Source: Savitreella phatthalungensis (lineage: Eukaryota). Taken from it: a stretch of 64,000 nucleotides of DNA. The stretch covers positions 868,001-932,000 of the forward strand of contig AP039690.1 of NCBI GenBank assembly GCA_051599415.1, given 5' to 3'. This document shows, piece after piece, positions 40,808-59,816 of the stretch. The translations under genes and the position numbers were made by a program. The notes below the pieces were generated by a model that saw nothing but the letters and a program-made list of their open reading frames with translations, was not told the DNA's origin and searched no databases. Positions within the stretch are counted from its first letter, which is position 1; each line of letters opens with the position of its first letter.

Positions 40808-42715
40808 TTACCATTTCGTTTTCAGCAATCCTCGCATCATGTCAAATGAGTTCCCATCTGCCTGCACGCCGATGACCTGTCCTCGTTCCCCGGTCAATCG
40901 AACTTGAAGGTGTCCGTGGGTATGATGGATGCCAACGACTACTCCACGAAGATTGCCTTCCTTTTCAATCGTGACGTGCTGGCCGTTGTGCAGCCAATGG
41001 CGATAATATCTCTCGGCAATCGCGGCAAAGCCACCGCCGTCAAACTTTGCCACTAGCTCTTCCAGTCGGGAGAGCAGGGCGGCTAACAGATTTTCCATCG
41101 CCACTGATTCCTTGACAAAAGCATTGACGGAGATCGTTGGGGCAGGATTGTTCACATTGACGCCACATCCGATTGTCAGAATGTACTTATCCTGCCAGAA
41201 AGTCGTGCTGATTAGCGAACCAGACACCTTGGCGTAATATTTGCCTTCCAGCTCAAAACACGACGTGCCCAAGGTGTTTTGTGACTGTGGAACCCGCATG
41301 TAGACATCATTTGGCCACTTGATGCCAAGTTCGAGCTCTGGACTGAGCTCGAGCAAGGCCTCGACAGTGGCAAGCGATATCAGATATTGGAAAAATACCA
41401 GCCCTGCAGCTCCTCCACTTCCTGGAGAATCAGCCAGGTCATGATACAAGATGAGGCTGAAGGAGAGCACACCGGGAGGAGATATCCAGCTGTTTCCGCC
41501 CCGACCACGCCCGGATAATTGATGTGAACACAGCATCAAGGTCCCGTGTGGCAGATCACGAGAAAGTGAGAAGTTCTTGTCTAGCATCGTCTGTGATGAT
41601 GTCACTACCTCCGCGTACAACCCAGCAACGCCAAGCCGTGCATGAGGAGACAGCAGACCGAGAAAGCGGCCGACATCGAATAAAGGTGATGGCTCTGCAA
41701 ATCCCAAAGACACATATTTTATCTGTTTGTCCAGATCGTCGGCAAGCGGTTTAATCTGTGGTGCCGACTCGCCATCTGACAAAATCTGGAATGTGTCGTT
41801 CTCACAGACGATGAGGTTTGCCTTTGAGATCTTGCTGCTTAGCACAGCTATTAGCTTTTCTCTTGACCCCTGATCCTTCGCAAAGAGCTGTAAGGTCGAG
41901 AGCGACGGCAACGAGCTTGCGGAATCATTGACGCGCAGGCACAGCCGTTTGTCGAGAATCGACCTGAAAAACGACAGGCGCGCATTTTCATGCTTGCCAA
42001 GCGCATCGTTATTCAAATCTATCTGATCGTTTTCCGAGACGTCGTCGTGAGATCCTGTGCAGATCGTCCGCGGACCGATCTCAGGGTGAACCGCAGACAG
42101 GACCGCAACGCCACGATCCACGTCGCATTTGACCACGCACGCGTCGCCACCTCCAACAACAATGGAATCGGCTGATTCGCTGTATCTCGCGATCACTTCC
42201 ACACCTGGCTTCTCTATCGCATCGACGAACACGCCGCCTCCATTCCAATAACAGCGAAATGGTGGCATTTGCGTTGAGGGTTGTATTGAAACGGCGCGCG
42301 CCCCGATTTCCGAGTCATATGAGAAACCCTCAAAGGCACATCCCCGTACCACGCCCGGGAAGAATCCGAGATCTCGATCACCAACGACTGCCATATCGGC
42401 CGAGCTGGCTTCGAATTCGCACCTGCTTGCAGCGAAATACGCTCCGGCGCAAAGCCCAAGGTACTTGCCCCCTTTTGAGACGAAGGATCGAATTGCGTCT
42501 GTGCCACGACCACGAAGCGCCGCGCAGAAAGGGACGTCCCTCCCGCCCGGAACAACAAGCAGCGCGGTCGAGCTTGCCCAAGGCTCCTCAATCAATGCTC
42601 TTGCATCTATAGTTCTGACAGAATAGTACGGTGTCAGGAGCAACGTCAGCGTCGCCAGCGCTCCTCTGACAGAAGATTTTGAGGTTCCCGCTCCGGCGTA
42701 GACCAGAACATTCAT
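40808..42715 (-). CDS. BPL1: Biotin-protein ligase (holocarboxylase synthetase) with BPL_N domain
   Basis: MNVLVYAGAG, PGGRD, GLCAGAY (BPL_N); QLSGRGRGGNSW, IKWPNDVY, DGNSFDMMRGL. Confidence 0.96.
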   Translation of the reverse strand: MNVLVYAGAGTSKSSVRGALATLTLLLTPYYSVRTIDARALIEEPWASSTALLVVPGGRDVPFCAALRGRGTDAIRSFVSKGGKYLGLCAGAYFAASRCEFEASSADMAVVGDRDLGFFPGVVRGCAFEGFSYDSEIGARAVSIQPSTQMPPFRCYWNGGGVFVDAIEKPGVEVIARYSESADSIVVGGGDACVVKCDVDRGVAVLSAVHPEIGPRTICTGSHDDVSENDQIDLNNDALGKHENARLSFFRSILDKRLCLRVNDSASSLPSLSTLQLFAKDQGSREKLIAVLSSKISKANLIVCENDTFQILSDGESAPQIKPLADDLDKQIKYVSLGFAEPSPLFDVGRFLGLLSPHARLGVAGLYAEVVTSSQTMLDKNFSLSRDLPHGTLMLCSHQLSGRGRGGNSWISPPGVLSFSLILYHDLADSPGSGGAAGLVFFQYLISLATVEALLELSPELELGIKWPNDVYMRVPQSQNTLGTSCFELEGKYYAKVSGSLISTTFWQDKYILTIGCGVNVNNPAPTISVNAFVKESVAMENLLAALLSRLEELVAKFDGGGFAAIAERYYRHWLHNGQHVTIEKEGNLRGVVVGIHHTHGHLQVRLTGERGQVIGVQADGNSFDMMRGLLKTKW

Positions 42716-42729
42716 GAAACACTGCGCAA

Positions 42730-42748
42730 GCGTACGTACGTACGTACG
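42730..42748. repeat. (CGTA)n microsatellite immediately 5' of BPL1
   Basis: GCGTACGTACGTACGTACG. Confidence 0.85.
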
Positions 42749-43026
42749 GACACTTATGATCGCTCAATAGCCTCTTGACAACCAGTCAGTTTGCGAGCGA
42801 GTTGCAGCGTGCACAGCTAACATCCATGTGTAACTAATGCATGTTAGTACGCATCAATTTCTTTGATGAATGCAGCAATAACCGTGCAAGACCTGGACAT
42901 ATGATATCGAAATGGAGCGCCAAACTGGCTGCTTCGTGTCACTAAGTCAAATCACTCCGATCTTCATTGGAATTTGAGGCACACTCATCGGGTGAGCTAT
43001 TATGCAAGTGTATCTTTCAGAGACGA

Positions 43027-44973
43027 CTACAACTTGGCTTTTGAGCTAGCTGATGGTTCAAGCACACATAGCAATGAGGCCTCGCCAATTTGCTCGCCCA
43101 CCTTGATGTCCTCGGGTATGCTCTTGACCGTGCCCGTGCGAGGACTACGCACGTCGATCTCCATCTTCATTTGCCGTAGTACAGCGATGACCTCGCCTTC
43201 GGCCACAAAATCACCTGATTCCACCAGGAGCTCAACGAGAATTCCTGAGAATGGTGAGGCGACCTGCCAAGGGTCCCGTTTGTCCGCCTTTGCGTGTCTC
43301 GTTGCTCCTTGAGCTCGTTTGAGTGTGAATTCCTTTGCTTCAGTCGAGCCAACCGGCAGGAACTCCGCAGCCACATGTTTTGGCCAATCCATGCGACGCA
43401 ATTTCGTCACTTCCAGTAGCTGAGGTGCACCTCCCCCAAGTGAGAATTCAAATTTGTCACCCTGCCTGAAAAGCTGCCCTGAGTTCGAGCCGGACTGTGT
43501 CCAATCCCGACTTGCCGCCTGACTAGCTTTGACTTGTGCCTGACTGAGCCTCTGCGCCTGATGTTCGCGCTTTGTCAAGTACGCTTGACCTGCACCGACA
43601 ATACGGGAGACCATCGATGCATTGGACAGTGTCGTGATGTCAATAAGACCCGGCCGGTGGAGCAGATTGCTGCGTGTTAGACCAATGAGAAGAGATTGAT
43701 TAGTGTCGACGCCATTGATGCGAAGCGATCGTAGTGCTGCTACAGATCGCCGTAAGGCGATCTTGTAGGTGGCGCCGGAACAGATGACTTTCGCTACCAT
43801 GTTATCGAAGAAATCCGACACCAAGTAGGATGTCGTATTGCTGAGAAGAGAGTCAACACGAACACCAGGTCCGGCAGGCAAATTATGCGACGAAATCAGC
43901 CCGGTCGCAGGGGCGAACGTGATAGGATCTTCCGTGTTGACCCGACTCTGAATGGCATGACCCAAGGGAGCGTGTGGAAATGAGATCGACTCCAAGTTCA
44001 GTCCGTCGAGGCAGACGCCTAACAAGAGCTGCACCAGGTCTATGCCAGTAACTTCCTCCGTGATGGTGTGTTCCACCTGGATTCGCGGGTTGCACTCCAT
44101 GAAATAAAACGGAACTGATTCGCCGGCTGCGCGCGCGTCCACTAGAAATTCGAAAGTGCCGAGACCAATATATCCAACGCGCCGTGCCAGCTTCAAAGAC
44201 GCTTCGATGATCGGTGCCACACGATCGCGGGTCAAGGAAGAAGGCGCGATTTCAATCACCTTCTGGAAGCGACGCTGAAGCGAGCACTCTCGTTCGAAGA
44301 CATGTCTTACATTCCCATATCGATCACCAACGATTTGAACTTCAACGTGCTTGAACCCCCGGAGAGCGGCCTTCTCACAAAAGACTTGGCGCGATGGTGA
44401 TTCGTTGATAGCTTCTCCAAATGCACGTTCAGCTTCAGCAGATGACTCCACAATTCGGATACCGCGGCCTCCGCCACCGTCTTTGGCCTTGATGATGACT
44501 GGGAAGCCGACCTGATTCGCGAACTTGAGGACTCCATCCACGTCGTTCACGGCTGAAGTGGAAGGTAAGGTCGAGACGCCCACGTTAGCAGCCAATGCCT
44601 TTGCTTCGGTCTTATCACCGAGAGTCGCTAGCACGTCAGCAGACGGGCCAATGAATGTCATACCTGCTTGCATCACTGCTCGCGCAAAGGCCGCCGATTC
44701 ACTCAGGAACCCGTAGCCAGGAGCTATGCCTTTGCAGAGCCCACGTCTCGCGATGTCGACAATCTTTTCGATGTCCATGTACTGTGCCGGGGAATCAAGC
44801 CTGATAGAAACCGTGGCGTCGATCGCGTGCGCACCATCGTTGTCGGTGAACAGCGCGATGGTCTCAATACCACGCTCGTGACATGCGTTGATCAGCCGAA
44901 CTGCGATCTCGCCTCTGTTGGCGATCAGCACACGGTTCTCTGGCCCCGTCGGAGGCTTTCTCATGCCCCGCAT
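43027..44973 (-). CDS. Biotin carboxylase-BCCP (acyl-CoA carboxylase alpha subunit) with C-terminal PTS1 -AKL
   Basis: VLIANRGEIA, PGYGFLSE, KAKDGGGGRGIR, ERECSLQRRFQK, ECNPRIQVEH, GPGVRVD; biotinyl motif RQMKM; ends SKAKL*. Confidence 0.92.
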   Translation of the reverse strand: MRGMRKPPTGPENRVLIANRGEIAVRLINACHERGIETIALFTDNDGAHAIDATVSIRLDSPAQYMDIEKIVDIARRGLCKGIAPGYGFLSESAAFARAVMQAGMTFIGPSADVLATLGDKTEAKALAANVGVSTLPSTSAVNDVDGVLKFANQVGFPVIIKAKDGGGGRGIRIVESSAEAERAFGEAINESPSRQVFCEKAALRGFKHVEVQIVGDRYGNVRHVFERECSLQRRFQKVIEIAPSSLTRDRVAPIIEASLKLARRVGYIGLGTFEFLVDARAAGESVPFYFMECNPRIQVEHTITEEVTGIDLVQLLLGVCLDGLNLESISFPHAPLGHAIQSRVNTEDPITFAPATGLISSHNLPAGPGVRVDSLLSNTTSYLVSDFFDNMVAKVICSGATYKIALRRSVAALRSLRINGVDTNQSLLIGLTRSNLLHRPGLIDITTLSNASMVSRIVGAGQAYLTKREHQAQRLSQAQVKASQAASRDWTQSGSNSGQLFRQGDKFEFSLGGGAPQLLEVTKLRRMDWPKHVAAEFLPVGSTEAKEFTLKRAQGATRHAKADKRDPWQVASPFSGILVELLVESGDFVAEGEVIAVLRQMKMEIDVRSPRTGTVKSIPEDIKVGEQIGEASLLCVLEPSASSKAKL

Positions 44974-45239
44974 GAGTGACTATTCAGACTGACGACGGAA
45001 GTGACCACACGCCTACAGGTGGACTACGTTGGTCTCCTGTGCCCTTAAAGTCATGAATTCGATGATCAACTTCGCGTGTAATCCCGTTCGGATCTCGGTA
45101 CGGGGTAGCACAACTCGAAATTGCGGGGTTCAGAGTGCAGAACTGGCATGAGTTGAAGACATCCCGATGAGACGACAGTGACTGCAGCATCTCGACAATC
45201 ATCGCAATAGAGGCGTGACATCAACGATCAAGTGTGAGA

Positions 45240-46895
45240 ATGCCAAACGAGCGGCGCAAGCAGCGAAGAGCTGCAGACTGGTCCCCAGTACTCGATCGTA
45301 TCAGGCATATTCAGCATCTCTCTCGGGCTCCGCCCAAGGATACACGCGGCTACCAGGCGCACATCCGAGCAGGGAAGCAATGGGTGAGAGAAAGAATTAA
45401 ATGCCTCGTCGACGAGGGCAGCTTCCAAGAGATTGGTAGTGTCACTGGAACGGCGGAATATGAGGAGGCGAATAAAGTCAAAAGTTTTGTGCCTACGAAT
45501 ATGGTGACAGGACTTTGTAAGCTTAATTGCCGTCCTGTCGCTCTTGCTGCTGACGATTTTACAATCCGAGCGGGCCATGCTGACGGTGCGCTGTATGCCA
45601 AAGCTGCATATATCGAGCAACTAGCTCAGAGTCTGAAGATGCCGCTCATAAGGCTCATTGACGGTGCCTCTGGCGGTGGCTCTGTTGCTGTATACAAAGA
45701 GATTGGCTTCACATACATCCCACCTTCGACTGGAGCTGGCTGGCAGACGATGGTGGACTCCTTGTCAGTGATTCCCGTGATAGGATGCATCCTTGGGGCA
45801 TCCATTGGCCTTGGAGCGGCCAAAGCATCGACGACGCATTTCTCCGTCATCTGCGCACCTATCGGATCACTTTTCAATGCAGGCCCGGTTGTCGTGGAGG
45901 CAGCTGGCATTGAATCTGGGCTGAGCAACGCTGAACTTGGGGGCCCCGAGGTCGTTTGCACCAACGGCGCGATTGACAACTTCGGAGCAACTGAGGAAGA
46001 ATGCTTCGCAATCATTCGCAAATTCTTGTCTTATCTGCCCTCGAGTGTGCTTGAGCTTCCACCGACGCGTAGATACGACGCTGCCTCGGTTGAGGAGCGT
46101 GCTCGTCGGCATAAGTTCTTGGACACCTGTATTCCGAATCAGTCTAACCGTGCATATGCCATCCGACCGGTGATCGAGGCTCTTGTCGACGCCGATAGCT
46201 GGTTTGAGGTTGGCCCGAAATGGGGCTCACCTTGTGTCGCTGGCCTCGCACGTGTGCGAGGCAGGCCTTGCGGCATGATTGCATGGGACACAGAGAGTGC
46301 TTCGCTCGGGAATTTAACAGCTGAAGCTGCGAAAAAGCTTAAGCGTCATGTCGAGCTCTGCTCGCGATTCGGTTTGCCAATCGTTCAGCTTGTGGATATG
46401 TCGGGATTTGCGATCGGTTCAGCAGCAGAGCGGGCAGGGACGATGCGTGCTGGTGTGGACGCAATACTTTCTGTTTATCAGGCTAGTGTGCCCTTCTTCA
46501 ATGTGGTCATCCGAAAATGCTACGGGGTTGCCGGCGCCTTCCTTGTGGACAACAAATTGCCACATTTCCGGATTGCGTGGCCTTCCGGAGAATGGGGCTC
46601 CCTCCCACTGGCCGGCGGTATCGAAGCTGCCTATGCCTGGCCACTGAAGCAGGCGATGCAAAAAGGCGGGCCAGAAGCACGTAAGGATCTCTATGAGAAA
46701 CTCAAGGCAGAGTTCGATGTGCTTGGCGATCCAGTCCGCACGGCGATCAACTTCGGCATCGAGGAAATTGTACAACCCTCGCAGACGCGTGCCATTGTGG
46801 CTGGCTGGCTGGAGCGTATCTATGAAGTGCACCTGCCAATGCGACTGAAGATTGAGCAGCTCAAGCACTCGCTGATCGGCAAGAGCCTTTTGTAA
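45240..46895 (+). CDS. Carboxyltransferase (acyl-CoA carboxylase beta subunit)
   Basis: VRERIKCLVDEGSF, ADDFTIRAG, GASGGGS, LFNAGPVVV, ELGG, VDMSGFAIG..AE, IRKCYG, AWPSGEWGSLP; ATG at 45240. Confidence 0.92.
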   Translation: MPNERRKQRRAADWSPVLDRIRHIQHLSRAPPKDTRGYQAHIRAGKQWVRERIKCLVDEGSFQEIGSVTGTAEYEEANKVKSFVPTNMVTGLCKLNCRPVALAADDFTIRAGHADGALYAKAAYIEQLAQSLKMPLIRLIDGASGGGSVAVYKEIGFTYIPPSTGAGWQTMVDSLSVIPVIGCILGASIGLGAAKASTTHFSVICAPIGSLFNAGPVVVEAAGIESGLSNAELGGPEVVCTNGAIDNFGATEEECFAIIRKFLSYLPSSVLELPPTRRYDAASVEERARRHKFLDTCIPNQSNRAYAIRPVIEALVDADSWFEVGPKWGSPCVAGLARVRGRPCGMIAWDTESASLGNLTAEAAKKLKRHVELCSRFGLPIVQLVDMSGFAIGSAAERAGTMRAGVDAILSVYQASVPFFNVVIRKCYGVAGAFLVDNKLPHFRIAWPSGEWGSLPLAGGIEAAYAWPLKQAMQKGGPEARKDLYEKLKAEFDVLGDPVRTAINFGIEEIVQPSQTRAIVAGWLERIYEVHLPMRLKIEQLKHSLIGKSLL

Positions 46896-51656: not shown

Positions 51657-52180
51657 CAGATTGACATAATCGAGAGCAAGCGGGGGCTCACAAAGTCGGA
51701 TCGCGCTGATGATGGCTAAAATCCGGCTTGGTGAGTTGCAGGAAAGGCCACAAAGAGCTTGTCGTCAATTAAAGTACAGATACAGGCTCGATCCACGCGC
51801 GCATTATTGAGCCATATCAATATCCCTGCAGGTCCTTGTTGATCAAGGCGTGGAACCGGCAGAGTAAACTAAATGTAAATTGCTGTGCATACAGCATGCA
51901 CGTGTGTTAGAATTCATGCGCGCAGCGTGTACCCTATATTCAGGTATGCATTCAATCGTGCGAGCGATTCAGCGTGTCGATGCATCGATATAATCTACCA
52001 CGGACTTCCGCGATAGATGCACCAATAAATTTACAGAATTTAGATCTGATGTGGAAGCAGCAAGGCAGTCTTTCATCTCTGACACTTGGCTCGACCTCCG
52101 TGCGCAGCTTCTTGAGCTGTCCGATGCTGAGATGCAGAGTGAATCCTGATGCAGCGAACTCCTACTTCAGGAGGTTGGAA

Positions 52181-54790
52181 TCATCTCGAATTAAGGAGTT
52201 TTTGTAGGGCAGCTTCGATCTGTGGCCAAATGATGTCGCTTGTTTCTCCGCGGAAGTTGACTAAGATCCCTCGCTGCTCATAATAATGCTTCAGTGGAGC
52301 CGTGTTCTCGTCATACACAGCAAGTCGACGTGTAAATGTCTCAGCAACATCATCAGCTCGCTGCGTCAAGCGTTCGCCCGTCAAGTCATCCTGACCAGGC
52401 ACCTTTGGGGGATTAAATGTAAGGTTGTAGGTTCTGCCGCTCGGAGCATGGATCCAACGGTTGACGATCCGATCGAGAATCACCTCGCGAGGTACATCGA
52501 GATTTATGACGGCAGTCAGATCCGCTCCGGCGATGCGCAGATCTCGATCGAGGGTGCGTGCCTGTGCAATAGTCCGAGGAAAGCCGTCGAGAACGAAAGA
52601 CTTGTCGAGTAGCTGGTTATCCCGTAGATGGGCTAAGACCATGGAGCACATCAAATCGTCGTCTATCAACTGTCCTGCCTCAACGATAGCCTTTGCTCGA
52701 ATACCGAGATCAGTGGATTGAACGATCTGCTGTCTTAGTAGATCGCCAGAGGATACAACGACGATCCCCTCGAACGTCTCCATTATACGCTTCGAATGTG
52801 TACCTTTCCCTGCTCCTGGAGCGCCAAGGATGAGTCCACGAATTGCTCGGTCTCTATGATGTGCTTTGAGGGAGGCGCATGTAGCATCGTAGTCTGCCAC
52901 CAACCTCTCCATTGTCGCTCCGATCTGTCCAGTGTGCTGCACAATATGACAGCCGGCTGTAGCTAGCATTTCTGTTTTCTGTGCAGCGGTTAGATCTCCG
53001 GGCATTCGAAGAGCGCCCGCATGGCCCATCACGCGCATTTCAGGGGCCGTAAATCCAGCAATCATAGCTACGATTGGCTTTGGATTGGGCGTCTTGTTGT
53101 ATTCTGCAATAAAGCTTGCAGCCTCCGCTTCAGCCAATCCACCAATCTCACCGAGGACAACGATCCCTCGCGTATCTGCGCGTTGGACAAAGATGCGGAG
53201 GGCGTCTACCAAAGACGTGCCTGCCAGCATATCGCCGCCCATACCAACCACCAAAGATTGACCAAGGCCTACACGCGTCGTCTCGCCGACAGTCTCGTAC
53301 GAAAGCGTGCCGCTCTTCGACACGATGCCAATGCAGCCCGGCTCGTACTGCAAATATGGCATGATGCCGACACGACATTGGCGTGGTACGATAGTACCTG
53401 GGCAGTTTGGACCGATCAGTCGTGTCTTGCCCGCGGATAACCGCAGTGCATCATGCACCCGTAGCATGTCGTGTATCGGCACACCTTCCATGACTGCCAC
53501 GACCAGCGGAATTTGCGCCTGTATGGCGGCGATGATCGCATCCGCAGCTTTTGCAGCAGGCACGAAGACTGCACTGACATCCGGGTCGACATCTGCCACT
53601 GCCTCGCGGATCGTGTTGAAGACAGGAAGCTCGAGATGGCGCTGTCCACCTTTGCCCGGCGAGACTCCACCAACAACATTTGTGCCATAAGCGATAGTGT
53701 CCCGAGCATTGATGGTTGCCTGCCTGCCTGTGAATCCCTGGTACACGACACGTGTATGTCTGTCAAGGTCCAATCGGAGCACTTTTGCCCTGCGCGCATC
53801 GTCCATACAGGATCGCGAGCTCGTGTGAAACTGCCGACGCCCAGACGGCACAGTTGCAGTAGCTGGGGCCTGGCGTAGCTTGGCTTGTTCGATCACAGCC
53901 TTGGCTGCGTCCTCGATAGCATCGCAGCTCGTGAGCGATAGACCTGAACTTTCAATGATCTGGCGGCCCTTGTCCATATTTGTCCCGCGAAGACGTATCA
54001 CGACGGGTGTATCTTTCATCTGAAGTTCGCGCACTGCTGCGACAACGCTCTCGGCGATCATGTCGCATCGTATCAACCCGCCGTAGATGTTAACCAGAAC
54101 GGCTCTGGTATGTGGTCCTCGAAGCAGCACATCGAAGCCCTTAATAAGCAAAGCAGTCGTCGCTTGACCGCCAGTGTCGAAGAAATTAGCCGATTTCCCA
54201 CCATAGAGCGAAATCACATCATTCGTTGCCATTGCAAGTCCAGCGCCATTGACAACGCAGCCAATATCGCCGCCGAGATCCGCGAAAATCAATCCAGCTT
54301 TGTCTGCTTCCTTTTCCCACGCGGTGCGTATGTCATCACCTCGCAAGGAGGCCCACTCGAGTCTTCTGAATGCCGCATCTGGGTCAACTCTGATACGGGA
54401 GACGACGATCTGTTCCTCGACAACGGAGAAGGCTATCTCGATTGCTTCAAGTCTCTTAAATGCTGACCAGACAGCGTCCAGCTGCGGCATTGCGCTGTAA
54501 CTCCCCCCGTTGGACGCGTCAACCAACAGATCCTTGACTTGATCCGAAAGCGTGGCCCTCGTGTACTCGAGACAGTGCATGTGCGTTCCGTGGCCGAAGG
54601 TGTCTAGCACCGGCCTTTTGAGCTCACGATCTATACGTAGAGCGTACGTAACAGCCGCCTCGCACCGGTCAGCTACATTGAGACGGAAAGGTTGCAATAG
54701 CCTTTGAGCATCATCTTGTCGCAAAGTTCGAAAGCTGCGATTAGGAGCGAGCTTTTGTATCGATCTGAAATGTGATCTCATCATCGACAT
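52181..54790 (-). CDS. Fusion: succinyl-CoA-ligase-like beta (ATP-grasp truncated) + alpha + AK3/Adk2-type adenylate kinase
   Basis: Beta: IGCVVNGAGLAMATND, ANFFDTGG, NIYGGLIRCD, RLRGTN. Alpha: YQGFTG, GPNCPG, SKSGTLSYE, GEIGG, MGHAGA. Kinase: GAPGAGKGT, SSGDLLR, LDGFPRT, RWIHAPSGRTYN, QRADD. One uninterrupted 869-aa frame. Confidence 0.9.
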   Translation of the reverse strand: MSMMRSHFRSIQKLAPNRSFRTLRQDDAQRLLQPFRLNVADRCEAAVTYALRIDRELKRPVLDTFGHGTHMHCLEYTRATLSDQVKDLLVDASNGGSYSAMPQLDAVWSAFKRLEAIEIAFSVVEEQIVVSRIRVDPDAAFRRLEWASLRGDDIRTAWEKEADKAGLIFADLGGDIGCVVNGAGLAMATNDVISLYGGKSANFFDTGGQATTALLIKGFDVLLRGPHTRAVLVNIYGGLIRCDMIAESVVAAVRELQMKDTPVVIRLRGTNMDKGRQIIESSGLSLTSCDAIEDAAKAVIEQAKLRQAPATATVPSGRRQFHTSSRSCMDDARRAKVLRLDLDRHTRVVYQGFTGRQATINARDTIAYGTNVVGGVSPGKGGQRHLELPVFNTIREAVADVDPDVSAVFVPAAKAADAIIAAIQAQIPLVVAVMEGVPIHDMLRVHDALRLSAGKTRLIGPNCPGTIVPRQCRVGIMPYLQYEPGCIGIVSKSGTLSYETVGETTRVGLGQSLVVGMGGDMLAGTSLVDALRIFVQRADTRGIVVLGEIGGLAEAEAASFIAEYNKTPNPKPIVAMIAGFTAPEMRVMGHAGALRMPGDLTAAQKTEMLATAGCHIVQHTGQIGATMERLVADYDATCASLKAHHRDRAIRGLILGAPGAGKGTHSKRIMETFEGIVVVSSGDLLRQQIVQSTDLGIRAKAIVEAGQLIDDDLMCSMVLAHLRDNQLLDKSFVLDGFPRTIAQARTLDRDLRIAGADLTAVINLDVPREVILDRIVNRWIHAPSGRTYNLTFNPPKVPGQDDLTGERLTQRADDVAETFTRRLAVYDENTAPLKHYYEQRGILVNFRGETSDIIWPQIEAALQKLLNSR

Positions 54791-55171
54791 CCTTACCCAA
54801 TGATCTTCCCGACCATGTGCTTGGACTAGGTCTCGTCAGCAGTAGATGACGCGGGTAACAAGCTTTTTGATCACGCTGAAGGAGAGCTCTGCATTCGAGG
54901 TTTCCCAGGAATTCTCGGATCAACGATTGTTCGTTCCATGACCGATCGATTAATCGCGAGGATTCCCCACAACTGCATGGCCGGCTGTATACATGCAATA
55001 ATAATTCCGGGTTCTTCAAGTTGATCAATTCGATCGACTCAATATAAATTAAATGTGGGGTAATATTTCTCCAGTGTGTACGTACGTAGGTAAACAGGGT
55101 ACGTGCAAATATGTTCACGACGCACGGACGATGCATGGAATCCCCGATCGTCATCATCTACGGCGTTCTCA

Positions 55172-56350
55172 ATGATGGTTGAGGGCATCGCCCCGATGAC
55201 AGCGGACGACGATTCGTCCGCACCAGTAGACCTCGTCGAGCTGTCACGAAACGGAGCTATAATGGAGGTCAGCCTCAATAGACCGGGCAAATTGAATGCG
55301 CTGTCTGGGGAACTCATAGAAAGGCTCTCGCTGACTCTCTTGCAATGTGAGAGGGACTCTGGAGTTCGAGTCGTTGTGCTCAGAGGCAAAGGCAAAGCTT
55401 TCTGCGCTGGTGGTGATGTCGCTGCTCTTGCGCGGCTCGCCAAACACGGGACGCAGTCTTCCATCCATGAGGGGAATAAGTTCATGCAGCGACAATATCA
55501 GCTCAATCATGTGGTGGCGACACTGAACAAGACCACGATCGCAATCTGGGATGGCATCGCGATGGGCGGCGGTATTGGCGCGTCGATTTGTCAGGACTTT
55601 CGCATCAGCACAGAAAACACGATGATAGCGATGCCCGAATGTGCTATTGCGTTTTTCCCCGATGTCGGAGCATCCTATTTCCTGAACAGGCTGGACCATG
55701 GGATCGGTGCCTGGCTGGCCCTGTCTGGATCTAGAGTCAAAGGCGAAGACGCAGTGCTGCTCGGACTAGCTACCCATCATGTTGCTTCGGACCGCTTAGA
55801 GGGCTTACTCGCGGCGCTCGCTACCGAATGCGCATACGATAAAGAAGAAGTTGACAGGTTGCTCACGCGGTCGTCCTCCAATCCTCCGACAGGACAAATG
55901 CACGCCAAGCGAGCGCGGATACGCGCAATTTTCCAAGCTGGCAGCTTGAAGGAGATACTGCAGCATCTCGAAGAAAGCAGAGAAACGTGGGCCGCAGAGA
56001 CCCTTAGGAACATTCGTTCAGCTTCTCCAACTGCTGTTTGCGTCACCTTTGAACTTTTGAAGCGCACGAAAGGACTGAAAGCAGAACAATGTCGAGCTCT
56101 TGAATTCGTTGTTCACACGAATTTCATGCGTCTGCCTGACTTTGTGGAAGGCACGTTCGCCAGACTTATCGACAAGCCGGCGAGAACGGCACGGTGGTCA
56201 CCCTCCAGCATTGAGGATTGCACCGAGCAGTACGTCGCGTCGTTCTTTATCCCGAAAGATGCTCCACTGCGTTTGCGTGCGCAGATTGCGGATGAGGGAC
56301 GCCAGAATCGGTACGCAAGACACGCGCGACTAGTTCAAGCTACGCCTTAA
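55172..56350 (+). CDS. 3-hydroxyisobutyryl-CoA hydrolase family (crotonase fold, Ehd3/HIBCH-like)
   Basis: LNRPGKLNAL, AFCAGGDV, WDGIAMGGGIG, AMPECAIAFFPDVG, DFVEGTFARLIDK...W; first in-frame ATG at 55172. Confidence 0.92.
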   Translation: MMVEGIAPMTADDDSSAPVDLVELSRNGAIMEVSLNRPGKLNALSGELIERLSLTLLQCERDSGVRVVVLRGKGKAFCAGGDVAALARLAKHGTQSSIHEGNKFMQRQYQLNHVVATLNKTTIAIWDGIAMGGGIGASICQDFRISTENTMIAMPECAIAFFPDVGASYFLNRLDHGIGAWLALSGSRVKGEDAVLLGLATHHVASDRLEGLLAALATECAYDKEEVDRLLTRSSSNPPTGQMHAKRARIRAIFQAGSLKEILQHLEESRETWAAETLRNIRSASPTAVCVTFELLKRTKGLKAEQCRALEFVVHTNFMRLPDFVEGTFARLIDKPARTARWSPSSIEDCTEQYVASFFIPKDAPLRLRAQIADEGRQNRYARHARLVQATP

Positions 56351-58034
56351 AGATAGTCATGACCTTTTGTCTGTATGCTTCAGTACGGGCATGGGACATT
56401 TGAGTATGTATCTGATAGACTGCATGGAAACATACACGCGAACACGAAACAGTCGCGTTTGCTGTCTTGGACGGTGACAACCATTGGTAGCAAGCACGGC
56501 AGGAAAGAGTCAGACCACGAAACCAATCGTGATGCGATGAACCGTATGGCTCCCGGAATGTTCAGCATTGTGAGTCGCTTTCGTCGAATTCCTTGTCAGC
56601 ATGAAAGTCGCACCCAATAGGAGCTCGGAGCAGGAGGGCTTTGGTGGTATCTACGGCTCGCCCAGAAACGTGAGAGATTCGCAATTCGACCACGACAACC
56701 ATGCATCACTGACAAGCGTCCTGTCATCTGCCGGTTGGCAAAGCAAAAAGCGACCATTACAGCGCGGCAAAAGAATCACTCTTGAACAACTATCTCGATC
56801 GTCATAATGAGCCGAAATAAAGGCCGTTGCGAGCGCGTCCTCCCGTGAGGAAATGTACGGAATTGACGAGTACGCATATATACTCGATCATGTTTGTACG
56901 AGTGCCAGCGTTTCACGTGTACTCATGCGGCCTAAGTTTCGTGGGTCAATGCATATGATCAAACCTATTTACTAGGTAATTTCCAACAAAATCACCCCAA
57001 TTGACTGCAAGGTTGAACTGAACATCCCGCCGGCCACGATCGATCACCGATATGGCTATACCACGTACTGTAGGTATGTGAAAGACAAATATAAAATCAT
57101 GAGTTCGGATCACGATCTGGATTAATTATGCCAATATATAAAGCTAGGCACATATTGATATTCAGTAGTAGTCGACGGACCTAAAGCTTAATTGTTTTTA
57201 CCCACCTCAATGATGATTTCGACTGTGTGTGGAGTTCTGGTGACCAGGCCTGCAACGTCCAGTTTGATCTCATGCCCATACATGGTGCTTCACGATCATC
57301 AATTCAGATCCCTTGGCGAGTCACAGATTGAAACATCAACGGCTGCTAGCAGTGAATTCTCACATGACACTTGCAAACGTACGACAACAAGCCATAATCA
57401 AGTAGGCACTCAGGCTCTCGACCTAACCTCATCTGTGGGAAGAGCCTCATTTGGACACCACTGTACTGGCCTCCAATGGCACAAGTCGCCTGTTAGTCCT
57501 CGTTACTGAATCTCATCGCTAGGGCGACGTGTTCTCGACATCTGTTGACCTTCCAACGACCTCCAGCTGTTTTGGCAACTGACTTCTTCCGATCTTCCGC
57601 ATCCGTCGCATCCCACCGGTCACATCCTTGGGCACGCCGCTGCGTGGCATCGCTTTCTACTCGAAGCACCTGCTCCCGCGACACTCGTCCACCACGCGGT
57701 AGAGCACGCCGTTGCAAGCGTTGCCAGTCAATTCTGATCAAGCATACTGTGCCAAGTAGGGTTTGACAGGCTGAGACTCAAACAGCTGCTTCGTCTCTGC
57801 TGACTCGTCGCGCGGCCCAAAACTTAGATTACCATCGAAAAACTTGTGACTCTTCCATCAACCTCAAGACCCGGCCGCTTGCGTACCCAGGCAGGCATCG
57901 ACCGTCCCGAGTAGCCGCGGCAGATAATCTGGTGTCTGTCACGCGCAGCTGCCTCGCCTGTCCCAAGAACTGTCTATATAACTGGCTCAAATCGCACATT
58001 CATATGATTCTCATTGAGCAAGCTCTTGCATCAA

Positions 58035-59816
58035 ATGTCTAGTGAGGCCTCGATTGGTAGATCCGCTGGCTCAACTATGCCCACCGGCCGCGCCGCTGGC
58101 TCCGATACTACTCAGAGTCCCATGGAGAGGCAACAACCTTCAGTTCAGCAAAGCGACGATCGATTAACCATACCGCAGCACGCAGACAGTCATCCGCACA
58201 CCAATAGCACTTCAGCTGCGAGTGCACAATCACAAGTGCTGAATCCGGCTGCCATAAAAAATGAAGGTCCGAACGTTGGTGACATAGGCGAGGCTAAACC
58301 GCGTCAGAAAAGAAAGAAGGCCTCTCGAGCATGTCTACACTGTCAGAAGGCTCATCTGACGTGCGATGACGCCCGTCCGTGCGGACGTTGTATTAAACGG
58401 GGTCTGCACACCACTTGCCACGATGGCGTGCGCAAAAGGGCAAAGTATCTGCAGGATGTCGATCTCGATGATCTCTATCTGGCTCCTGGCGCGAATCGTT
58501 CTTCTCCTCAAGTAGTCACTCCCACGACTGCCACTGCGTACTCGGGCATCCCTCCATCACCGGGCATGGTTTCAGCGTACTCGCAAATGCCGAGTCTCCA
58601 ACGAAACGGCTCATCGTATAGCAATCCTGCCGAACTAGCCGCACAAGGAACGGAATCCACGTTTCACGACAACGCCTCGACACAAAGCAATGTGAACATG
58701 GCTACCGTCTCTGTCGATGCGTCTGCGAGCGCTCTGTTCGGAGATCATTTCCTCTTTGACTATCCTCCACTGTCAAGCTATGACTTCGATTCAAAGGCGG
58801 CTAACCTCGAATACAGCATGATCTCCACAATGCTTGGACGCGCCATGACTCCGGGTACCGAGGCGAGTAGCGATCCATTTGCACTGTCCCCGCAGAGCCT
58901 GCGTCCAGGTGACTTAGCAATGAGTCGTCAGTCGCAGGCGCACCCGTGGCTCGGCTCAGGCGCAAGCTCGGGAATGCCTGCTCCCGCGCCGTTGTCGACA
59001 ATGCCGCTCACGACTGCTGAGCAAATTGGGAAACAAGATATTCCATCCCCGGCTACCTCTAATCAGAGCTTTTCCTCTCAACCGAAATCTCAGCCAGCCG
59101 CACCATCGAACCATATTGACCCACACGGGCAAAGACCGACTCCTGTCGCTCGTCGTGCCGTTCCAGGCGCAAGCAAGGACCCAAGCAGCATCTACACCGC
59201 CATTACCCGGCCGTTCAGTTATACCAATGGCTACCATCTCCTCAACTCGTATTTACGCAGTCGATTCGACAAAGAAGATCTGGTCCGCATCGCTCGCGCT
59301 ATCGTGGGCTATCGGCCGTCGTTCATAGCGCTGACTAAGACTCTCCGTGAAGAAGACTTGACCTTCATGGAGGTCTGCTTTCAGCGCACTCTCCTCGAGT
59401 ACGAAAAGTTCGTTGGCTATTCGGGCACGCCTACCGTGATTTGGAGGAGGACCGGTCAGATCGAATTGGTGGGTAAGGAATTCTGCCTGCTAACGGGCTG
59501 GACGCGTGATCAGCTCCTCGGCAAGCAGACATTCATCGTGGAATTGATGGATGATGCATCGGTGGTCGAATACTTTGAGCAATTTTCTCAGCACGCCTTT
59601 GGGGACACTTCCTCAGTGGTTACGACGTGTATCCTTTTGACGCCGCCCGTTAAGAGGCGGGACAAGGCCGATGAAGAACAAGGGGCTACTGCATGCGGGG
59701 AAGAGAAAACGCCCGCGCAGGGCAAGGTGCCATGTGCATTCTGCTTTACTATCAAACGCGACGTGTTCGACATTCCCATGATGATTGTGGGCAACTTCCT
59801 GCCTTGTCTAAGTTGA
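58035..59816 (+). CDS. ERT1: Zn2Cys6/PAS transcription activator of gluconeogenesis Ert1/AcuK
   Basis: RKKASRACLHCQKAHLTCDDARPCGRCIKRGL..CHDGVRKRAKYL, AANLEYS, RPSFIA, GTPTVIWRRTG, RDVFDIPMMIVGNFLP. Confidence 0.95.
   Translation: MSSEASIGRSAGSTMPTGRAAGSDTTQSPMERQQPSVQQSDDRLTIPQHADSHPHTNSTSAASAQSQVLNPAAIKNEGPNVGDIGEAKPRQKRKKASRACLHCQKAHLTCDDARPCGRCIKRGLHTTCHDGVRKRAKYLQDVDLDDLYLAPGANRSSPQVVTPTTATAYSGIPPSPGMVSAYSQMPSLQRNGSSYSNPAELAAQGTESTFHDNASTQSNVNMATVSVDASASALFGDHFLFDYPPLSSYDFDSKAANLEYSMISTMLGRAMTPGTEASSDPFALSPQSLRPGDLAMSRQSQAHPWLGSGASSGMPAPAPLSTMPLTTAEQIGKQDIPSPATSNQSFSSQPKSQPAAPSNHIDPHGQRPTPVARRAVPGASKDPSSIYTAITRPFSYTNGYHLLNSYLRSRFDKEDLVRIARAIVGYRPSFIALTKTLREEDLTFMEVCFQRTLLEYEKFVGYSGTPTVIWRRTGQIELVGKEFCLLTGWTRDQLLGKQTFIVELMDDASVVEYFEQFSQHAFGDTSSVVTTCILLTPPVKRRDKADEEQGATACGEEKTPAQGKVPCAFCFTIKRDVFDIPMMIVGNFLPCLS

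What the first reader, a model, noticed from the sequence alone, without database searches (positions are those of the whole stretch)
52181..54790. Three-part mitochondrial fusion: succinyl-CoA ligase beta + alpha + adenylate kinase
Seen: one stop-free frame carries a beta-like region (aa ~1-304, 54790-53879), a complete alpha region (aa ~337-632) with the phospho-His motif MGHAGA (His codon 53023-53021), and a full adenylate kinase (aa ~648-869, 52849-52184). The kinase P-loop and LID (RWIHAPSGRTYNLTFNPPK) are of the mitochondrial AK3/Adk2 GTP:AMP phosphotransferase type. Known: eukaryotic SCS subunits are normally separate genes, and AK3 consumes the GTP made by substrate-level phosphorylation. 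Inference: the fusion could couple acyl-CoA thioester energy to AMP phosphorylation. I do not know of a characterised protein with this architecture, but I could not search for one.
Basis: partly seen in the sequence, partly recalled or inferred. Interest (0 to 1): 0.9.

Follow-up and report, generated by a model that had tools for sequence, protein, structure and literature searches.

The report
Succinyl-CoA ligase-like enzyme fused to kinase
A fungal nuclear gene joins a succinyl-CoA-ligase-like enzyme that has lost its own nucleotide pocket to a complete mitochondrial-type (AK3-like) adenylate kinase, a rare and uncharacterised arrangement that links these enzymes to one CoA-ester pathway.

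Summary
Window 52181-54790 (-) is one 869-codon ORF carrying an SCS beta-like part, a complete SCS alpha part (His590, codon 53023-53021) and a complete AK3-type adenylate kinase. A 63%-identical orthologue (P0003, 873 aa) has the same three parts in frame with linkers of different length, so the fusion is unlikely to be an assembly error.

New here: the beta part lacks the nucleotide-binding portion of its ATP-grasp fold, about 110 residues including the Lys/GGRGK segment; EINPL has become EIAFS. The CoA/acid/phospho-His site is fully kept. The protein therefore cannot make GTP the canonical way and pass it to its kinase.

The kinase is the lineage's AK3 orthologue. In sister fungi it is fused to a CLYBL-type acyl-CoA lyase (9 clusters, one from Protomyces), and in one metagenome protein to a full SCS beta.

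I read it as a real mitochondrial two-enzyme protein of a SUCL-like/CLYBL/AK3 module. Direct phosphate hand-off from His590 to the kinase is possible but unproven. I found no RNA data and no paper on this architecture. The scan had not noted it on other DNA.

The parts
52181..54790 (-). Whole ORF, 869 codons plus TGA stop: SCS beta-like + SCS alpha + AK3-type adenylate kinase
54731..54790 (-). aa 1-20, putative mitochondrial presequence: 7 K/R and 2 D/E in the first 30 residues, low-confidence helix
   Evidence: targeting is inferred, not tested
54296..54730 (-). aa 21-165, remnant of the beta ATP-grasp fold. It lacks the segment with the nucleotide-binding Lys and GGRGK loop; EINPL is EIAFS here
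53876..54295 (-). aa 166-305, beta C-terminal CoA-ligase domain, intact: VNGAGLAMATND, ANFFDTGGQAT, VNIYGGLIRCD
53780..53875 (-). aa 306-337, disordered beta/alpha linker with the conserved motif PSGRRQFHTS (53848-53819), probably the retained presequence of the ancestral alpha gene
   Evidence: a cleavage role is inferred
52895..53779 (-). aa 338-632, complete SCS alpha: QGFTG, GPNCPG, SKSGTLSYE, GEIGG, MGHAGA
53021..53023 (-). Codon CAT of His590, the phospho-histidine of the MGHAGA motif
52841..52894 (-). aa 633-650, alpha/kinase linker, part of predicted helix 620-645. From M627 onward the sequence aligns with the N-terminus of the standalone kinase P0122
52184..52840 (-). aa 651-869, complete AK3-type adenylate kinase: P-loop 52825-52799, GDLLR, GFPRT, LID 52459-52403, RADD

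Best explanation
This is a genuine, conserved nuclear gene of an ascomycete; the closest named relatives of its parts are Taphrina and Protomyces. It encodes a mitochondrial-matrix protein with two catalytic modules.

Module 1 is a single-chain beta->alpha succinyl-CoA-ligase paralogue. It keeps the whole CoA/acid/phosphate/phospho-His site ('site I') but has lost the nucleotide site ('site II') of the ATP-grasp domain. On its own it can only run the nucleotide-free half reaction: acyl-CoA + Pi <-> acyl-phosphate + CoA, then acyl-phosphate + His590 <-> acid + His590~P. The net result would be Pi-dependent CoA transfer between two acids, or thioester cleavage. The acid is probably not succinate, since GGQ replaces GGG.

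Module 2 is the lineage's ordinary AK3/Adk2-type NTP:AMP phosphotransferase, catalytically intact.

The two are joined because they belong to one matrix module. In sister fungi the same kinase is joined to the next enzyme of such a route, a CLYBL-type malyl-/citramalyl-CoA lyase.

Shown here: the architecture, the loss of site II, the retention of site I and of the kinase motifs, the orthologue with the same fusion, and the alternative fusion partners. Inferred: matrix location, the half-reaction chemistry, the substrate class, and that the fusion reflects shared pathway membership rather than direct phosphate hand-off.
For: One open frame, with no plausible intron at either junction: 2 of 2 motif-level candidates lie inside the conserved alpha domain. 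A second run of the source sample gives a contig over 52000-54810 with 0 differences. The orthologue P0003 (873 aa, 63% identity, 99% coverage) has the same Pfam set, and its alpha/kinase linker differs in length by about 6 residues yet stays in frame.

Identity between P0001 and P0003 is 78% in alpha, 70% in the beta C-domain and 64% in the kinase, against 44-47% in the linkers and 39% in the ATP-grasp remnant. All three catalytic parts are therefore under constraint.

Site II loss: there is no ATP-grasp_2 hit at E<=10 in 5 of 5 clade proteins scanned (the P0001 N-terminal 307 aa, P0004, P0005, P0006, P0015), and none for P0003 at E<=1e-5. The alignment shows the VVKAQVLAGGRGKG-containing segment absent and EINPL/DAK changed in all 6 clade members. 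The model of residues 1-305 aligns end to end with SCS beta chains, but only 282 of 393 residues align (2fp4_B, Z 27.2, rmsd 4.8). tblastn finds no ATP-grasp exon elsewhere in the window. Lichen-fungus relatives keep the domain (P0034 ATP-grasp_2 E 4.5e-49), so the loss is derived.

The site I and kinase motifs are all present. The whole-protein model has pLDDT 89.7 and pTM 0.76. Residues 18-639 superpose on human ACLY's single-chain beta->alpha module (5teq_A, Z 35.8, rmsd 2.9, 571 aligned).

The kinase is AK3-like, and TIGR01351 scores 215 against a cut-off of 168. On the tree of 25 kinase domains, P0001, P0003, one standalone kinase and 9 lyase-kinase fusions lie on one side of a 92/93 branch. 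The lyase half of P0249 (Protomyces lactucae-debilis) matches human CLYBL 5vxc at E 8.8e-49.

SUCL, AUH and CLYBL form one route in animals, and SUCL makes malyl- and itaconyl-CoA (bioRxiv 10.1101/2024.09.25.614871, passages read). AK3 supplies GDP for SCS (PMC9032187, passages read).
Against: There is no expression or protein evidence. Only two sequences carry the triple fusion: 2 of 84 and 2 of 120 listed. None of 52 shorter proteins spans the junction.

The independent low-depth runs do not bridge the alpha/kinase junction. The pathway link rests on fusions seen in other organisms. Whether this genome has a CLYBL gene, canonical SCS subunits or a second AK3 is unknown, because no genome is held and the window holds none of them.

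In 57 of 57 metagenome AK3-like loci, no SCS-like or lyase gene lies in the DNA held. Many of those loci are short. The association is therefore lineage-specific.

With site II gone, the fate of His590~P is unexplained. A lyase needs no nucleotide, so kinase fusions could reflect gene adjacency alone. The half-reaction and CoA-transfer chemistry is my inference from classical SCS enzymology (recalled), not from any test here.
Confidence: 0.55

Rival explanations
1. The kinase domain replaces the lost nucleotide site. His590~P, made from an acyl-CoA and Pi at site I, exchanges its phosphate directly with a nucleotide held by the tethered AK3 domain. This would happen in cis here, and in trans from the CLYBL-AK3 protein in sister fungi. 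It would be a new kind of substrate-level phosphorylation.
For: Site II is deleted, while site I and the phospho-His loop are strictly kept. The kinase is attached to the C-terminus of alpha, the domain that carries His590, through a predicted helix 620-645. In the two kinase-fused proteins, Ligase_CoA starts at residue 179 (P0001) and 174 (P0003). In the unfused clade members P0004, P0015 and P0006 it starts at 223, 220 and 270, so the ATP-grasp remnant is shortest where the kinase is fused. A pTM of 0.76 for the whole chain is higher than I would expect if a quarter of the chain were placed at random; this is a weak inference. Phosphate hand-off from SCS to another nucleotide kinase (NDPK) has been proposed (PMC10342173, passages read).
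Against: Every residue class needed for ordinary NTP:AMP transfer is conserved, as in standalone AK3, with no indel against 1zd8 in the LID or the C-terminal loop: P-loop, GDLLR, GFPRT with the following Q, LID arginines, RADD. The same kinase is standalone in P0122 and fused to a lyase, which has no phospho-His, in 9 clusters. 52 of the 84 hits show no PF08442, and most of these have no fused kinase. No adenylate kinase is known to me (recalled) to act on a protein histidine. Coordinates and PAE of the model were not available, so the geometry is untested.
Confidence: 0.15
2. This is an accidental read-through fusion of two neighbouring genes with no functional link. The kinase is the housekeeping matrix AK3 and may also be made on its own from an internal start (M627). 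The ligase-like part does something unrelated.
For: From M627 onward the protein aligns with the full length of the standalone kinase P0122, starting at its Met1 (54% identity over 241 residues). The whole kinase gene, including its N-terminal extension, was therefore appended. The same kinase has been captured by at least two other partners, which suggests a locus prone to fusion. The beta/alpha linker likewise looks like a retained presequence.
Against: The fusion is kept in frame in two species only 63% identical, despite linker indels. The partners are not random: SCS-like, full SCS beta and CLYBL are all CoA-ester enzymes of one known route. M627 is also conserved in clade members without a kinase, so it is not evidence for a second start.
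Confidence: 0.2
3. The ligase-like part is a decaying or non-catalytic paralogue, acting as a scaffold or regulator, and only the kinase is an enzyme.
For: A whole substrate site is lost. The alpha and beta scores fall below NCBIfam equivalog cut-offs: 327.2 against 336, and 187.6 against 370.
Against: The alpha and beta C-domains are the best-conserved parts (78% and 70% between P0001 and P0003), and every site I motif is intact across 6 of 6 clade members.
Confidence: 0.07
4. Assembly or frame artefact: the three parts are not contiguous in the organism.
For: No independent run bridges 52808-52908, and there is no RNA run.
Against: A second run of the same sample, at word depth 394, gives an identical contig over 52000-54810. 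An orthologue from another assembly has the same architecture. Fragments from two other studies are 98-100% identical where they overlap, with no indels.
Confidence: 0.03

Closest known systems
Succinyl-CoA synthetase, alpha/beta heterodimer (human SUCLG1/SUCLG2 or SUCLA2; E. coli SucCD)
   Same: The alpha part is 46-48% identical to solved alpha chains and superposes on them (4xx0_A, Z 40.3, rmsd 1.6, 299 aligned). The phospho-His motif, GEIGG Glu, CoA-binding fold and beta C-terminal CoA-ligase domain are all present.
   Different: It is one chain in beta->alpha order. The beta ATP-grasp nucleotide site is deleted. GGQ replaces GGG in the beta loop ANFFDTGGQAT. NCBIfam equivalog cut-offs are not reached. 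A kinase is appended.
Mitochondrial GTP:AMP phosphotransferase AK3 (human 1zd8, bovine 2ak3; yeast Adk2 recalled as the fungal counterpart)
   Same: It is the best solved relative of residues 648-869 (E 2.9e-60) and is collinear over chain residues 6-215 of 227. P-loop, AMP-site and long-LID motifs are shared.
   Different: Here the kinase is the C-terminal domain of an 869-aa protein. GTP preference cannot be read from sequence, because it depends on the backbone conformation of a short loop (PMC9635829, passages read).
ATP-citrate lyase N-terminal (citryl-CoA synthetase) module
   Same: It is the only solved single-chain beta->alpha arrangement. Residues 18-639 align with 5teq_A (Z 35.8, rmsd 2.9, 571 aligned).
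   Different: Identity is 19-20%. ACLY keeps a working ATP-grasp and carries a citryl-CoA lyase domain. It has no kinase.
Uncharacterised fungal fused SCS-like proteins (e.g. Taphrina deformans 'protein of unknown function' P0005; Xanthoria steineri P0034; Fusarium/Aspergillus/Penicillium 'CoA-binding domain-containing' proteins)
   Same: They belong to the same paralogue family. P0004, P0005, P0006 and P0015 share the beta'->alpha order, the lost nucleotide segment, the TGGQAT motif and the RxF-S/T linker motif.
   Different: None of them carries the kinase. P0034 keeps a full ATP-grasp. The Fusarium type (P0007) is in alpha->beta order.
CLYBL-AK3 fusion proteins of Taphrinomycotina-like fungi (P0249 Protomyces lactucae-debilis, annotated only as 'Pyruvate/Phosphoenolpyruvate kinase-like domain-containing protein'; P0072, P0129, P0247, P0250-P0252, P0256, P0258)
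   Same: They carry the orthologous kinase domain (57-62% identity) at the C-terminus of a mitochondrial CoA-ester enzyme.
   Different: The partner is a HpcH/CitE-type lyase (CLYBL, 5vxc E 8.8e-49), not an SCS-like ligase.

Membership tests
Succinyl-CoA synthetase alpha subunit (SucD/SUCLG1) | CoA-binding Rossmann domain plus C-terminal flavodoxin-like domain | tested here: met
   PF02629 344-436 (E 2.3e-22) and PF13607 484-622. Z 40.3 to 4xx0_A.
Succinyl-CoA synthetase alpha subunit (SucD/SUCLG1) | Catalytic phospho-histidine in MGHAGA, and the Glu of GEIGG that stabilises it at site I (His246alpha and Glu208alpha in E. coli; PMC10342173) | tested here: met
   MGHAGA 588-593 and GEIGG 547-551. 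Both are conserved in 6 of 6 clade members.
Succinyl-CoA synthetase alpha subunit (SucD/SUCLG1) | Score above the curated equivalog/subfamily cut-off | tested here: not met
   NF004230 scores 327.2 against cut-off 336; TIGR01019 scores 324.3 against 353.2. The score is close but below, as expected for a paralogue.
Succinyl-CoA synthetase beta subunit (SucC/SUCLG2/SUCLA2) | N-terminal ATP-grasp domain that binds ADP/GDP (site II) | tested here: not met
   No PF08442 hit at E<=10. The beta profiles match only from position 183-212. The Lys/GGRGK segment is absent and EINPL is EIAFS. 282 of 393 residues of 2fp4_B align.
Succinyl-CoA synthetase beta subunit (SucC/SUCLG2/SUCLA2) | C-terminal CoA-ligase domain that forms site I together with alpha | tested here: met
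   PF00549 179-299; motifs VNGAGLAMATND and VNIYGGLIRCD.
Succinyl-CoA synthetase (whole enzyme) | Catalyses succinate + CoA + NTP <-> succinyl-CoA + NDP + Pi | not testable with these tools
   This needs an enzyme assay. The missing site II argues against the full reaction.
Adenylate kinase (PF00406 / TIGR01351) | P-loop GxPGxGKGT, NMP-binding region, long LID, and a score above cut-off | tested here: met
   PF00406 E 1.8e-41 and PF05191 E 1.7e-14. TIGR01351 scores 215 against cut-off 168. Motifs located.
AK3 / GTP:AMP phosphotransferase subtype | Closer to AK3 than to other isoenzymes | tested here: met
   1zd8 at 2.9e-60 and 2ak3 at 1.8e-59. The next best are 5g3y at 1.7e-53, AK4 at 5.3e-48 and AK2 at 2.7e-46.
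AK3 / GTP:AMP phosphotransferase subtype | Uses GTP, not ATP, as phosphate donor | not testable with these tools
   Selectivity lies in the backbone orientation of a short loop (PMC9635829). The loop has the same length as in 1zd8, but the preference is only inferred.
ATP-citrate lyase | Citryl-CoA lyase / citrate-synthase-like C-terminal domain and a working ATP-grasp | tested here: not met
   No such Pfam domain is present. Only the beta->alpha synthetase module is shared.

The most novel reading that the evidence does not exclude
The tethered AK3 domain has taken over the role of the deleted ATP-grasp site. The phosphate captured on His590 from an acyl-CoA thioester and Pi would be passed directly to a nucleotide in the kinase domain, or the reverse. 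That would be a new form of substrate-level phosphorylation, built from an SCS site I and a P-loop NMP kinase. In sister fungi the same trio (beta'-alpha, CLYBL-AK3) would work as a complex.
Probability: 0.15. Interest if true: 0.9.

Novelty: new variant of a known kind. Interest (0 to 1): 0.6.

Why it matters
First, it is a natural 'Rosetta stone'. One fungal AK3-type kinase is found fused to an SCS-like ligase, to a full SCS beta subunit or to a CLYBL-type lyase. That is genetic evidence that AK3, SUCL-type ligases and CLYBL act as one matrix module. The link matters for itaconate and malyl-CoA handling and for vitamin B12 biology in animals, where it has so far rested on biochemistry of separate enzymes.

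Second, it exposes a clade of SCS paralogues that keep the phospho-histidine machinery but have no nucleotide site. What accepts or donates the phosphate is an open, directly testable enzymological question. The fused kinase is an obvious candidate.

Third, the protein is a compact, expressible object for testing whether thioester energy can be routed to nucleotides without an ATP-grasp domain.

Tried and rejected
- Whole genome of the window: none is held. Paralogues such as canonical SCS, CLYBL or a second AK could not be sought. tblastn of the 64-kb window found none.
- Expression: no RNA holder is listed. The laid runs were contigs only. X3, X4 and X6, from two other studies, gave 175-324 bp pieces. 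None covers 52808-52908, so the junction is neither bridged nor broken by independent data.
- Complex prediction of residues 17-640 against 646-869: no verdict (score 0.13, mark 0.34, controls not run). It counts neither for nor against docking.
- ESM Atlas: no usable hit.
- Earlier notes of this scan: by sequence, one unrelated note (SucCD lacking the catalytic His). By genome, by words and by relatives: nothing.
- Metagenome scan with the kinase-clade alignment: 57 loci, 0 with an SCS-like or lyase region in the DNA held. It gave no genomic context for either fusion type.
- Search for shorter proteins spanning residues 560-720: 0 of 52 span the junction.
- Representative search: I Pfam-scanned only 12 of the 150 listed hits, chosen from the multi-stretch and fusion-length ADK hits, plus P0072 and P0003. 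10 of the 12 were multi-kinase proteins.
- Literature: the searches found no paper on an SCS-adenylate-kinase or CLYBL-adenylate-kinase fusion, nor on SCS-like proteins without an ATP-grasp. One search failed on term syntax and was re-worded. I read passages only, not whole papers or supplements.
- Intron scan: the 2 motif-level candidates both lie inside the alpha domain and were rejected, because splicing them would delete GPNCPG or MGHAGA.
- Rooting of the kinase tree on P0126 is unreliable (end branch 3.63). I use only the unrooted split. Four partial domains (P0320, P0328, P0329, P0332) were dropped before the tree was built.
Full report
**Observation**

The window's minus strand carries one ORF, 52181..54790, of 869 codons with an ATG start and a TGA stop. 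The frame is open only from 54835, so this ATG is the first possible start, 15 codons after an in-frame stop.

Pfam finds Ligase_CoA (179-299), CoA_binding (344-436), Succ_CoA_lig (484-622), ADK (654-841) and ADK_lid (778-813), all far above their cut-offs. Residues 339-629 match human and pig SUCLG1 at E about 1e-90.

Residues 648-869 are a complete kinase. Their best solved relatives are human and bovine AK3 (E 2.9e-60 and 1.8e-59). Other adenylate kinases score 1.7e-53 or weaker.

**Is the fusion real?**

A second run of the source sample yields a contig identical over 52000-54810. Fragments from two other studies are 98-100% identical without indels, but none bridges 52808-52908. No RNA run is listed.

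The strongest support is an orthologue from another assembly. P0003 is 873 aa, 63% identical over 99% of the length, and has the same Pfam set. Its alpha/kinase linker is about 6 residues longer yet stays in frame.

Identity between the two proteins is 78% (alpha), 70% (beta C-domain) and 64% (kinase). It falls to 44-47% in the linkers and 39% in the N-terminal remnant. That is the pattern expected if all three catalytic parts are under selection. A motif scan gives no plausible intron at either junction.

The beta part is not whole. NCBIfam beta profiles match only from position 183-212 of about 388. ATP-grasp_2 is undetectable even at E<=10 in the N-terminal 307 residues, and likewise in the four closest unfused relatives P0004, P0005, P0006 and P0015.

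I aligned these proteins to full beta subunits and collinear beta-alpha fusions. All six clade members keep the first helix and the strand equivalent to 'YLxxxxDR'. All six lack the intervening segment with VVKAQVLAGGRGKG, which holds the nucleotide-binding Lys and Gly loop. They also have EIAFS-type sequences where EINPL stands, and variable residues where the DAK Asp stands. The assignment of these motifs to Mg/nucleotide ligands is recalled. Glu197beta and the swing of His246alpha to the beta nucleotide site are described in PMC10342173 (passages read).

A model of residues 1-305 (pLDDT 88.2) aligns end to end with SCS beta chains, but only about 280 of 385-393 residues align (2fp4_B: Z 27.2, rmsd 4.8, 282 aligned). 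No missing exon lies elsewhere in the window. Because the ORF is continuous, the deletion is genomic.

Lichen-fungus relatives of the same fused family keep a full ATP-grasp (P0034, PF08442 E 4.5e-49), so the loss is derived. By contrast, every site I motif is intact: QGFTG, GPNCPG, SKSGTLSYE, GEIGG, MGHAGA, VNGAGLAMATND and VNIYGGLIRCD. The acid-loop motif reads GGQ instead of GGG, and this is shared with the fused fungal family.

**Fold**

The full-length model is confident (pLDDT 89.7, pTM 0.76). Disorder is confined to residues 1-16 and the 306-327 linker, and a helix at 620-645 leads into the kinase. Residues 335-635 superpose on SUCLG1 (Z 40.3, rmsd 1.6). Residues 18-639 superpose on the single-chain beta->alpha module of human ATP-citrate lyase (5teq_A, Z 35.8, rmsd 2.9, 571 aligned).

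**Family context**

Fused SCS-like proteins are common in fungi. One search returned 84 hits, mostly hypothetical proteins of Fusarium, Aspergillus, Penicillium, lichen fungi and Taphrina. 32 of the 84 carry PF08442 in the precomputed column. Some, such as P0007, are in alpha->beta order. Only 2 of the 84 also carry the kinase: the window's own product and P0003.

A search with the kinase part among proteins of 477-1521 aa lists the same two SCS-kinase proteins. It also lists 9 clusters in which a 57-61% identical kinase follows a HpcH/CitE-type lyase (Pfam for P0072 and P0129). One of these is annotated from Protomyces lactucae-debilis, and its lyase half matches human CLYBL (5vxc, E 8.8e-49).

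The all-against-all representative search adds P0126, a full SCS beta with an intact ATP-grasp followed by an AK3-like kinase. It comes from a 2.1-kb metagenome contig.

In a tree of 25 kinase domains, P0001, P0003, one standalone kinase (P0122) and the nine lyase fusions lie on one side of a 92/93-supported branch. They look like orthologues of one fungal AK3-type gene with different partners.

Elsewhere the association is absent. 57 of 57 AK3-like loci from metagenomes show no SCS-like or lyase region in the DNA held.

**Interpretation**

AK3's only chemistry is nucleotide phosphotransfer. In animals it is held to recycle GDP for SCS (PMC9032187, passages read). SUCL also makes itaconyl- and malyl-CoA, which CLYBL removes, and 'SUCL, AUH, CLYBL' are named as the itaconate route (bioRxiv 10.1101/2024.09.25.614871, passages read).

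One kinase is thus fused alternately to an SCS-like ligase, an SCS beta or a CLYBL. I read this as Rosetta-stone evidence that the three belong to one matrix module for a C4/C5 dicarboxylyl-CoA.

Within this polypeptide the canonical relay (GTP made at the ATP-grasp site, then used by AK3) is impossible. My best reading (0.55) is two intact modules on one chain:
- a nucleotide-free SCS site I, running acyl-CoA + Pi <-> acyl-phosphate <-> His590~P, with net Pi-dependent CoA transfer or thioester cleavage (inferred from classical SCS partial reactions, recalled);
- a normal AK3.

The bolder reading (0.15) is that the kinase domain replaces site II. It is favoured by the site II loss and by the attachment to the His-bearing domain. 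It is weakened by three observations. The ordinary AMP and NTP sites of the kinase are fully conserved. The kinase is also fused to a lyase. Many relatives without an ATP-grasp have no kinase.

An accidental fusion with possible separate expression from M627 (0.2) cannot be excluded, because P0122 aligns from its Met1 with P0001 from M627.

**A further detail**

The disordered beta/alpha linker carries a motif conserved across the clade. It reads RRQF-HTS here, and RQF-S, RTF-S or RSF-S in four relatives. It resembles a matrix-peptidase R-3 cleavage site (recalled) and the presequence of a once-separate alpha gene. The precursor may therefore be cut into beta' and alpha-kinase. This is inference only.

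**Surroundings**

The gene sits among ordinary fungal nuclear genes. About 300-350 bp upstream, on the other strand, lies a HIBCH/mS47-type 3-hydroxyisobutyryl-CoA hydrolase gene. 5-10 kb away lies a divergent acyl-CoA carboxylase alpha/beta pair beside a biotin-protein ligase gene. These fit a CoA-ester theme but prove nothing.

**Verdict**

This is a real and rare domain architecture: a new variant of known enzyme kinds, uncharacterised as far as my searches reach. The unexpected twist is the missing nucleotide site. I had no expression data, no whole genome and no model coordinates; these are the main gaps.

Noticed in passing
P0249, P0072, P0129, P0247, P0250, P0251, P0252, P0256, P0258 (proteins): Nine clusters of CLYBL-type (HpcH/CitE) lyase fused to an AK3-type kinase. 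One is from Protomyces lactucae-debilis, with a basic, presequence-like N-terminus. I found no paper on this fusion.
   Followed up: partly
P0126 (677 aa, JGI metagenome contig of 2122 bp): A canonical SCS beta subunit with an intact ATP-grasp, fused to an AK3-like kinase with an enlarged LID. This is an independent fusion of the same two functions. It is a single sequence on a short contig, so a chimera is not excluded.
   Followed up: partly
window 53819-53848 (-), aa 315-324: A conserved RxF-(S/H)-(T/S) motif in the otherwise poorly conserved, disordered beta/alpha linker of the clade. It looks like a retained alpha presequence with a matrix-peptidase cleavage site, so the precursor may be cut into two chains.
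   Followed up: partly
window 55103-56350 (+): A 3-hydroxyisobutyryl-CoA hydrolase / mS47-type gene (ECH_2, E 9e-104; 6yw5_88 at 1.1e-56). It is transcribed divergently from the fusion gene, with about 300-350 bp between the two starts.
   Followed up: partly
window 40808-46895: A biotin-protein ligase gene (40808-42763, -) lies next to a divergent pair encoding the biotin carboxylase/BCCP subunit (43027-44979, -) and the carboxyltransferase subunit (45219-46895, +) of an acyl-CoA carboxylase.
   Followed up: no
window 58008-59816 (+): An ORF with an ERT1/AcuK-family PAS domain (E 6.6e-43), the family of fungal gluconeogenesis regulators, lies 1.7 kb beyond the hydrolase gene.
   Followed up: no
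P0058 (Aspergillus lentulus, 845 aa), P0030 (Penicillium expansum, 1460 aa), P0060 (Physcia stellaris, 1052 aa), P0070 (Tricholomella constricta, 572 aa): Other annotated fusions of fungal SCS-like proteins: with an APS kinase (another P-loop kinase), a carnitine acyltransferase, a short-chain dehydrogenase, and an acyl-CoA-binding domain plus ankyrin repeats. Some may be merged gene models.
   Followed up: partly
window 52000-55000, runs X3, X4, X6: Short contigs 98-100% identical to this gene occur at word depth 2-4 in runs of two other studies labelled as other organisms. The fungus, or a very close strain, is present there at low abundance.
   Followed up: no
P0034 (Xanthoria steineri): This relative keeps the ATP-grasp domain but reads AINP where EINP stands, so the Glu equivalent to E. 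coli Glu197beta is Ala. P0016 and P0038 keep EINP.
   Followed up: no
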